From: Schmidtea nova
Lineage: Eukaryota
Assembly: GCA_044892505.1 (NCBI GenBank)
Contig: CM097882.1
Coordinates: 241,056,001-241,120,000, forward strand
DNA length: 64,000 nt
Reading direction: 5' to 3'
A program made the position numbers and the translations under genes. The notes below the pieces were generated by a model that made no database searches, was not told where the DNA came from, and worked only from the letters and a program-made list of their open reading frames with translations. Positions 46,423 to 47,835 of the stretch are shown here, piece after piece (positions within the stretch are counted from its first letter, which is position 1; each line of letters begins with the position of its first letter).

Positions 46423-47835
46423 CTACTCTAACCATCCTTTCGTTGACTTCGTGTTCATCACTGTTGTACTTGCTTTCTTTTCGATTTCCAATTCTACGTA
46501 TAGGTTGTCGTCGTACAACATTTCCCACATTGTTTGGTGTGGTATGAATTTTGGTTCTCCAGTCGCTAATGAACATTCTGTGGTTGGTCTTTTGTAAGCT
46601 TCGTGCTTACCATCAATTTTGAATACTCTCGCTATTGTTTCTTTCGAGTTTTTCACTCTCATTATGGCCTTTGTTTCTAGTGGCCATTCTAATATGTCGT
46701 CGTAACCACCTTTACACAACGCGAAGAATAACGACACATGCGTTTCCTTTCCTGATCCATCTCCATTTGGATAAATTCTCATCCGGACTTTGTATCCATT
46801 TTTCCACAGATAGAATGGTGGACTTGTTACCGACACTTGACTTCCTGCTTTTGCTGCTGCGAATTTGTCATTGAAGTTCTTGATTTTCCATACATATGGT
46901 GCGACCGGTAAATTCTCGATATCCTCTGTATCTCGTATCCACATTTGATGTCTCACGTTTACTTCTTTTACCAATGTCTCTATGACTTTGATTTTCTCCA
47001 TCATTTTCTCTCTGGTGAGCTTGAATTGCTCTCTCGTTTCCAGTAATAACTCCGTCATTATCCTCTGAGATTCGATTTCTTTTCCCAGTTTCTGTATGGT
47101 TTGCTCCATTCCGTTCAAATTTTCTGTTAGCATCTCGGCGTGTTGTACCGTTTCCGTTTCCAAATGCTCTTTCATCTCTTTGTTCGTTTTCTTTACTGCA
47201 CATCCTTGTTTACTCCATACGCACTTTCTTGGTCTTGATTCGCATTGTTCCCAGTGTTCTCTCAACATCACTTCTTCTCCGGTTCCGCAATTACTTGGAC
47301 AAATTCCTCTGAATTTTCCACAAACTTTCTCTTCTGCTACGTTGAGATGTTCATTTTCGATTACTTCTCTCGTCTCTCTTTGTTCGCAGTATTGACACTC
47401 TATTATCTATGCTTTGCACTCATCCTTGTGCTTTTTCGACTGCTTGATGGTTATCGTCTGTTGACACTTTTCACATATCGCTTTCTTGTTTTCGCATTTT
47501 CCTAGATGTTGTCTTAGCTCGATTATTTGTCCTTTCCATTCACAGGGTTGGTTTATACATTCTGTTTTTATCTTCCAGATCTCCTTTTGTATTGCTTTGT
47601 CTGGTTTCGTCTCGTTGATTAGTAGTTTATCGTCACACTCTGGACACTTTCTTGTCTCACTTTCACTGATTATTTGCAATATACACTTGGTGCACATCCT
47701 GCATCCACATTCCGTTTGTCTCGGTTTTAACAGTAAATTTTTACACTTTACACACGTCACATTTACTCCCCATTGTCGATTCTCTCCTCTTAGAATCTCG
47801 ATTGTTTGGTAATCTGCTTCGCTTTCTGCTCTCAT
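46423..47835 (-). pseudogene. Full-length TRAF-like protein (RING, TRAF zinc fingers, coiled coil, MATH) with one in-frame TAG at 47407-47409
   Basis: CVKCKNLLLKPRQTECGCRMCTKC...CPEC; CINQPCEWKG; read-through IIECQYCE...CPSNCG joins in frame to the 282-aa ORF with VWKIKNF, SPPFY, GYKVRMRIYPNGDG, HVSLF, DDILEWP. Confidence 0.95.

What the first reader, a model, noticed from the sequence alone, without database searches (positions are those of the whole stretch)
46423..47835. Intronless full-length TRAF gene carried by the element
Seen: the two ORF-track pieces (142 aa and 282 aa) are in the same frame, separated only by TAG at 47407-47409. The 45 codons between them are open and add zinc-finger Cys (IIECQYCE...CPSNCG). 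Together they give RING, zinc fingers, coiled coil and MATH (~470 codons). Known: TRAFs are E3 ligase/adaptors in TNFR/TLR-NF-kB/JNK signalling. Inference: an mRNA-captured host gene kept as cargo.
Basis: partly seen in the sequence, partly recalled or inferred. Interest (0 to 1): 0.8.

Follow-up and report, generated by a model that had tools for sequence, protein, structure and literature searches.

The report
Giant flatworm retroelements carry TRAF gene
A giant, virus-like jumping element of a flatworm carries a complete copy of a host cell-signalling gene (TRAF), kept intact by selection in hundreds of copies (this one copy is broken) and likely used to keep its host cells alive; such cargo was partly known in these elements.

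Summary
Confirmed, on the minus strand: 47835-46423 is a 470-codon RING / zinc-finger / coiled-coil / MATH TRAF frame with one TAG at codon 143. The stop is private: 1 of 60 distinct genomic copies has it, 54 of 60 are fully open. The gene sits in the 3' accessory block of a 29.4-kb env-bearing gypsy LTR element of the planarian Burro type. It is cargo, not a later insertion: pN/pS 0.12 over 30 copies, 34 of 34 Cys/His invariant. Four element families in this genome (35-52% identical TRAFs) keep it at the same position, two of them lacking RT and integrase; the largest pairs it with a BIR-RING IAP. Element TRAFs form one clade inside the triclad host TRAF radiation: one old capture. 'Intronless' is no evidence of mRNA capture, as host TRAFs here are single-exon too. 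MATH/TRAF-C and IAP cargo in Burro elements are published; the full-length stand-alone gene, its selection, origin and operon-like spacers I did not find in papers I could read (two key papers unavailable). Pro-survival function and expression are inferred, untested. New variant of a known kind.

The parts
46423..47835 (-). Full-length TRAF accessory gene, 470 codons, interrupted in this copy
   Evidence: open in 54 of 60 distinct copies
47407..47409 (-). Private nonsense codon (codon 143), between zinc fingers 2 and 3
   Evidence: 1 of 60 distinct copies
47635..47754 (-). RING domain (residues 28-67), all-Cys type: Cys where TRAF2/3/6 have His
   Evidence: pN/pS 0.043
47161..47559 (-). TRAF-type zinc fingers (residues 93-225)
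46912..47151 (-). Coiled-coil helix (residues 229-308)
   Evidence: model of sister copy
46483..46896 (-). MATH / TRAF-C domain (residues 314-451)
47836..47924 (-). 89-nt spacer before TRAF: TGTAAATA motif after the upstream stop, YAG one base before the ATG (candidate 3' acceptor)
   Evidence: YAG kept in 27 of 28 copies located
46334..46422 (-). 89-nt spacer after TRAF: TGTAAATAAA 16 nt after the stop, YAG one base before next ATG
47925..48275 (-). 116-aa accessory ORF, always directly upstream of TRAF in families A-D
   Evidence: pN/pS 0.068
45173..46333 (-). 386-aa coiled-coil accessory ORF downstream of TRAF
   Evidence: pN/pS 0.134
44575..45099 (-). 174-aa accessory ORF with two hydrophobic stretches
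   Evidence: homologue in family B
48399..53690 (-). Integrase + ankyrin repeats + C-terminal hydrophobic segment; separated from pol in this copy by a private frameshifting deletion
   Evidence: one 5170-aa frame in family B
53651..61837 (-). Polyprotein: unknown N-terminal part, Monjiviricetes-type fusion glycoprotein (env), protease, RT, RNase H
61864..63273 (-). Gag with CCHC zinc knuckles
41064..44372 (-). 3' LTR, 3309 bp, TG...CA, holds two ORFs (211 and 199 aa); its twin lies beyond the window end (G000:C1:241123154-241126462), 3 mismatches; 4-bp target duplication

Best explanation
This is a host TRAF gene captured once, long ago, by Burro-type giant LTR retroelements of planarians and kept under purifying selection as a stand-alone accessory gene that likely acts as a pro-survival ubiquitin-ligase scaffold in the cells where the element is active. 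Shown: full domain set, position in the element, hundreds of copies, selection, one clade among triclad TRAFs, retention in families that lost RT and integrase, an IAP gene directly behind it in the largest family, and that the window's copy is a decayed one. Inferred: it is translated from a processed sub-genomic mRNA (acceptor just before the ATG, joined to an LTR leader or a spliced leader); it trimerises through coiled coil and MATH; with element-borne or host IAP it tilts TNF/stress signalling away from caspase death, so cells that transcribe the element survive and pass on new insertions.
For: Cargo status: flanks of 29 of 29 other copies match the element over about 1.1-1.5 kb each side; 54 of 60 distinct copies open; pN/pS 0.118, shared variants 0.12 vs singletons 0.25, Fisher p 0.0018, against RT 0.044 and integrase 0.026; 0 of 34 Cys/His columns vary vs 110 of 436 others, p 0.0002. 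Families B, C, D: pN/pS 0.19 (8 copies), 0.15 (20), 0.21 (3). Origin: element clade 100/99 inside a triclad clade 100/100 with Dendrocoelum lacteum TRAFs; RING CGC in 19 of 20 element and triclad rows vs 7 of 68 others. Function: 28 of the 30 best BIR loci fetched are TRAF-IAP tandems of family C; Burro1's IAP is reported to protect stem cells from caspase death (second-hand, PMC13465017); host TRAF knock-down raises cell death in planarians (PMC7586133); TRAF2-cIAP partnership is textbook (recalled).
Against: No expression or activity data. Family A, the window's own, has no BIR gene, only a RING-only 152-aa ORF. Non-autonomous families keep the whole accessory block, protease and ankyrin parts too, so retention is not TRAF-specific. 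The MATH peptide groove differs from host and vertebrate TRAFs, so its ligands may not be host receptors. The best-studied viral TRAF is pro-apoptotic (PMC3352826). Element rows have skewed composition, which could pull them together in the tree; no sister host paralogue can be named (AU p 0.37).
Confidence: 0.58

Rival explanations
1. Same cargo, but it works as a decoy or degrader that damps host innate-immune or anti-transposon signalling (mixed trimers with host TRAFs, or ubiquitination of a restriction factor) and not as a survival factor.
For: Intact RING under the strongest constraint (0.043); altered peptide groove; env-bearing, retrovirus-like element; TRAF genes recur in large DNA viruses.
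Against: No sign of the fast amino-acid change expected in an arms race in any domain (pN/pS 0.04-0.2); tandem with an IAP in family C.
Confidence: 0.2
2. The TRAF serves the element's own particle or membrane proteins (ubiquitin-dependent sorting, budding, or signalling from the element's own transmembrane ORFs).
For: Diverged groove; several accessory ORFs with hydrophobic segments; fixed gene order.
Against: Kept under selection in family C, which has no gag, env, RT or integrase match in 3 of 3 full copies.
Confidence: 0.13
3. Pro-death factor that helps release of enveloped particles, like the megalocytivirus TRAF ORF111L.
For: ORF111L induces caspase-8 apoptosis (PMC3352826 abstract).
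Against: Neighbouring IAP; vertically inherited element at hundreds to a thousand copies.
Confidence: 0.05
4. A separate retrocopy insertion or neutrally evolving passenger.
For: This copy has a stop; 5 of 40 RT-anchored copies lacked all or part of TRAF within 9.5 kb.
Against: Those 5 are multi-gene deletions or interruptions, none a clean empty site; no poly-A tract or duplication at the gene's ends; pN/pS 0.12; four families share the position.
Confidence: 0.02

Closest known systems
Burro / GYPSM1 giant gypsy-like LTR elements of Dugesiidae (Jurka 2007, Grohme 2018, as reviewed in PMC6431247)
   Same: About 30 kb, env homology in frame between gag and pol, ankyrin repeats, RING, MATH_TRAF_C and (family C) BIR cargo.
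   Different: The review places only a MATH_TRAF_C domain inside the Burro1 polyprotein, or in an upstream accessory ORF in Dugesia tigrina; here a complete RING-zinc finger-coiled coil-MATH gene stands alone downstream of pol, in four families including two without RT/integrase. BCL2-like and ubiquitin-like parts were not confirmed here.
Burro1 B-IAP (Lee et al. 2026 Dev Cell; seen only through PMC13465017)
   Same: Host-derived cell-death regulator carried by a Burro element; family C carries a BIR-RING gene.
   Different: That work, as cited, concerns the IAP; whether it also describes the TRAF I could not see.
Triclad host TRAFs (Dendrocoelum lacteum TRAF-2/-4/-5; Smed-TRAF-2A/B of PMC7586133)
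   Same: Same domain order and length, CGC-type RING, single coding exon in this genome.
   Different: Only 28-33% identical; A-rich element-like composition; changed peptide groove.
Megalocytivirus TRAF, ISKNV ORF111L (PMC3352826)
   Same: Captured host TRAF in a virus-like agent.
   Different: 296 aa, DNA virus, fish origin, pro-apoptotic; an independent capture.

Membership tests
TRAF (TRAF2/3/5-like) | C-terminal MATH/TRAF-C domain | tested here: met
   Pfam over cut-off; PDB TRAF5/3/1/2 E 1e-24 to 1e-27; Foldseek
TRAF (TRAF2/3/5-like) | N-terminal RING plus zinc fingers | tested here: met
   TRAF6/2/5 RING-ZF structures E down to 5e-14; ligands invariant; Pfam RING scores below cut-off; third ligand-pair His is Cys
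TRAF (TRAF2/3/5-like) | Coiled coil before MATH | tested here: met
   80-residue helix in model
TRAF (TRAF2/3/5-like) | Trimer, receptor-peptide binding, E3 activity | not testable with these tools
   groove residues differ; needs biochemistry
Burro elements | Giant (about 25-30 kb) LTR element, gypsy order PR-RT-RH-IN | tested here: met
   29.4 kb, 3309-bp LTRs, 4-bp target duplication
Burro elements | env homology between gag and pol in the polyprotein | tested here: met
   PF24664 E 4e-71 upstream of protease
Burro elements | Extra ankyrin, RING, MATH, BIR domains | tested here: met
   BIR only in family C
Burro elements | BCL2-like domain before env | tested here: inconclusive
   no Pfam, PDB, atlas or fold match; low-confidence helical model
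Burro elements | Sequence relationship to Burro1-4 reference elements | not testable with these tools
mRNA-captured (retroposed) cargo | Loss of introns relative to the parent gene | tested here: inconclusive
   7 of 7 distinct host-like TRAF loci examined lie in one long open frame, so there is no intron to lose

The most novel reading that the evidence does not exclude
Planarian giant retroelements carry an operon-like survival cassette (TRAF, in the largest family TRAF plus IAP, the same pair that gates TNF death in vertebrates), cut into single mRNAs by the host's spliced-leader machinery; non-autonomous families have shed gag, env and RT but spread to over a thousand copies on this cassette, and element copies account for much of the reported planarian TRAF/MATH expansion.
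Probability: 0.25. Interest if true: 0.85.

Novelty: new variant of a known kind. Interest (0 to 1): 0.58.

Why it matters
Retroelements seldom keep whole host signalling genes under selection. Here one TRAF capture has been kept through the split of four families and through loss of the replication genes, which makes a testable case of an element manipulating, or helping, host cell survival, extending the reported Burro1 IAP mutualism to a TRAF-IAP module. It also warns that counts of planarian TRAF/MATH genes (121 domains in PMC6109357) and RNAi or expression studies on them may mix host genes with element copies: in this genome about 3000 first-look TRAF candidates stand against a handful of host-like loci found.

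Tried and rejected
Expression: no RNA holder listed; laying two runs of unknown kind showed cover and no joints, uninformative. Complex prediction of family C TRAF trimer with its IAP BIR part: no verdict. BCL2-like region of the polyprotein: nothing from PDB, atlas, Foldseek or Pfam. IAP homologue search empty. First 118-row tree did not finish, redone by FastTree and by IQ-TREE on 41 rows. The disruption list was an artefact of paired one-base gaps and was replaced. Read-through or recoding of the TAG rejected: it is private to this copy. Simple 'UGUA + AAUAAA poly(A) signal' reading of the spacer motif is weakened by PMC5068929, which reports no UGUA upstream of planarian poly(A) signals. 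Papers not held: Lee 2026, Grohme 2018. Earlier scan findings: none.

Full report
Observation. window:46423-47835 read on the minus strand is a 470-codon frame with one internal TAG at codon 143, 47407-47409. The two ATG pieces are 142 and 281 aa. With X at the stop, Pfam finds RING (28-67), zf-TRAF and MATH (314-451). A natural unbroken sister copy (L002, 98.6% identical) matches TRAF5/3/1/2 TRAF domains and TRAF6/2/5 RING-zinc-finger structures, and folds at pLDDT 93 with an 80-residue helix before the MATH sandwich.

The element. The gene lies in a 29.4-kb LTR element: LTRs 41064-44372 and, beyond the window, 67154-70462 in continued coordinates, 3309 bp each with 3 mismatches, and a 4-bp target duplication. 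On the minus strand it encodes a RING-only ORF, gag, a polyprotein with a Monjiviricetes-type fusion glycoprotein before protease, RT and RNase H, then integrase with ankyrin repeats, then four accessory ORFs: 116 aa, TRAF, 386 aa, 174 aa. This is the Burro architecture described for planarians (PMC6431247, passages read). The nearest named TRAF relatives are from the triclad Dendrocoelum lacteum, so the host is inferred to be a planarian. The window copy is defective twice: the TRAF stop and a frameshifting deletion at the RNase H/integrase junction that 29 of 29 other copies lack.

Cargo or insertion. A DNA search gave 475 first-look candidates, 40 scored, all full length at 96-100%; the neighbouring ORF gave 509; these are not copy numbers. 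Of the 29 other copies fetched, 27 are open and none stops at codon 143; their flanks match the element. Over 75 loci (60 distinct sequences) 54 are open and 6 carry private stops, only the window's at 143; this sample favours intact copies. For a sample not chosen by TRAF, I took the 40 RT matches: 30 have a listed TRAF match about 7.6 kb away (cross-read by eye); of the other 10, fetched, 5 have the whole gene (4 open), 1 part of it, 1 a deletion spanning several genes, 3 break off earlier. None shows a clean empty site.

Selection. Over 30 copies pairwise pN/pS is 0.118 (RING 0.043, zinc fingers 0.205, coiled coil 0.082, MATH 0.115); shared variants give 0.12, singletons 0.25 (p 0.0018). 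Controls: RT-RNase H 0.044, integrase 0.026, 116-aa ORF 0.068, 386-aa ORF 0.134, integrase-ORF tail 0.326. 0 of 34 Cys/His columns vary against 110 of 436 others. Pairs are not independent and the copies are the best 30 of several hundred.

Other families. Protein searches found three more multi-copy TRAFs. B: 458 aa, 52% identical, in a 29.7-kb element with identical LTRs and one 5170-aa polyprotein (one copy examined in full). D: 449 aa, 46%, about 25 kb, gag and env present, RT, RNase H and integrase absent in 3 of 3 copies, LTRs 99.8-99.9% in the 2 with both LTRs. C: 485 aa, 35%, about 25.5 kb, no gag, env, RT or integrase match in 3 of 3 full copies, LTRs 99.9-100%; 1327 first-look candidates; TRAF is followed by a 389-aa BIR-RING protein most like cIAP1/2, and 28 of the 30 best BIR loci fetched, of 1295 candidates, are such tandems. 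pN/pS of TRAF: B 0.19 (8 copies), C 0.15 (20), D 0.21 (3). In all four the gene follows a homologue of the 116-aa ORF and precedes the coiled-coil ORF.

Origin. Host-like TRAFs in AT-rich DNA outside elements (L063-L069, L135, L136) are 28-33% identical and lie in single open frames; so 'intronless' says nothing on the route of capture. A FastTree of 118 rows (107 of 153 database hits, kept by length 400-630) and an IQ-TREE of 41 rows (30 chosen database rows, long-branch P0040 left out) put A, B, C, D and an unnamed database protein (P0008) in one clade (100/99) inside a clade of triclad TRAFs (100/100). Whether the element clade is sister to all host paralogues or to one group is open (AU p 0.37), and element rows have skewed composition. 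The RING has CGC for CGH in 19 of 20 element and triclad rows and 7 of 68 others. TRAF divergence follows that of the other element genes (B nearer than D nearer than C). One old capture is the simplest reading. The MATH core RxYPNGDG is kept, while the serine-rich stretch and ASG-C/S-P motif of vertebrate and host TRAFs are changed; that these form the peptide groove is recalled.

Expression. No RNA run was listed. The spacers suggest how downstream ORFs could be read: 15 of 16 accessory spacers in A-D have TGTA-H-A-W-A 14-21 nt after the stop (shuffles mean 1.7, maximum 6 of 2000) and 12 of 16 have YAG within 8 nt of the next ATG (mean 2.3, none of 2000 reach it). The motif was chosen after seeing the data and the spacers are homologous, so this overstates significance; 2 of 7 host TRAF loci (two near-identical paralogues) have the motif too. 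Spacers of 73-272 nt fit flatworm operon spacing (PMC12582326 and PMC8629364, passages read), but cis-splicing from the LTR fits equally, and the motif equals a Pumilio element (recalled) overlapping a poly(A) hexamer; PMC5068929 (passages) reports no UGUA before planarian poly(A) signals.

Mechanism. Shown: a selected, complete TRAF carried by the element. Inferred: survival scaffold, from the IAP tandem, the reported role of Burro1's IAP (second-hand through PMC13465017, passages), host TRAF RNAi phenotypes (PMC7586133, first part of text) and the vertebrate TRAF2-cIAP pair (recalled). Rivals: immune decoy, particle function, pro-death (PMC3352826, abstract and one section).

Known versus new. 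MATH_TRAF_C in Burro elements is published. Searches for Burro, Burro1, TRAF with planarian transposon terms found no paper on a full-length element TRAF, its selection or origin; PMC8532177 and PMC11410931 (passages) do not mention TRAF; PMC6109357 (passages) reports the MATH expansion without linking it to elements in the passages seen. Lee 2026 and Grohme 2018 with supplements were not available and may cover part of this. Verdict: new variant of a known kind, interest 0.58.

Noticed in passing
window 41454-42053 and 42205-42840 (minus): Two ORFs of 199 and 211 aa lie inside the LTR and so occur twice per element; no Pfam match; LTR ORFs also in families B and D.
   Followed up: no
L031:2143-2601 (minus; element 5' region): 152-aa ORF ending in an IAP-type RING without BIR, upstream of gag; homologues in B and C.
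   Followed up: partly
window 48399-52600 vs L190: The ankyrin region of family D is 76-78% identical to family A while its gag and env are about 53%, suggesting recombination between families.
   Followed up: no
L105:1484-2150 and L106-L116: A 670-bp piece holding the first 219 codons of host TRAF L068 is dispersed in about ten copies at 94-98% identity, many with stops: a second, independent and decaying mobilisation of a host TRAF fragment.
   Followed up: partly
G000:C2:64515001-64550000: A family D element is nested inside the polyprotein gene of a family B element.
   Followed up: no
continued coordinate 67125-67147 (L031): Primer-binding-site-like sequence just inside the 5' LTR resembles a tRNA-Pro 3' end complement (recalled, untested).
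   Followed up: no
window 17087-20741, 24000-28871, 38069-40723: Other, smaller retroelement-like remnants with broken ORFs and short terminal repeats (D6/D9, D10, D12); the one at 38-40.7 kb has integrase-like ORFs.
   Followed up: no
G000:C3:43.80-43.90 Mb, C2:416.82 Mb, C2:452.92-452.99 Mb: Host TRAF paralogues occur in three small clusters, all with single-frame coding regions.
   Followed up: partly
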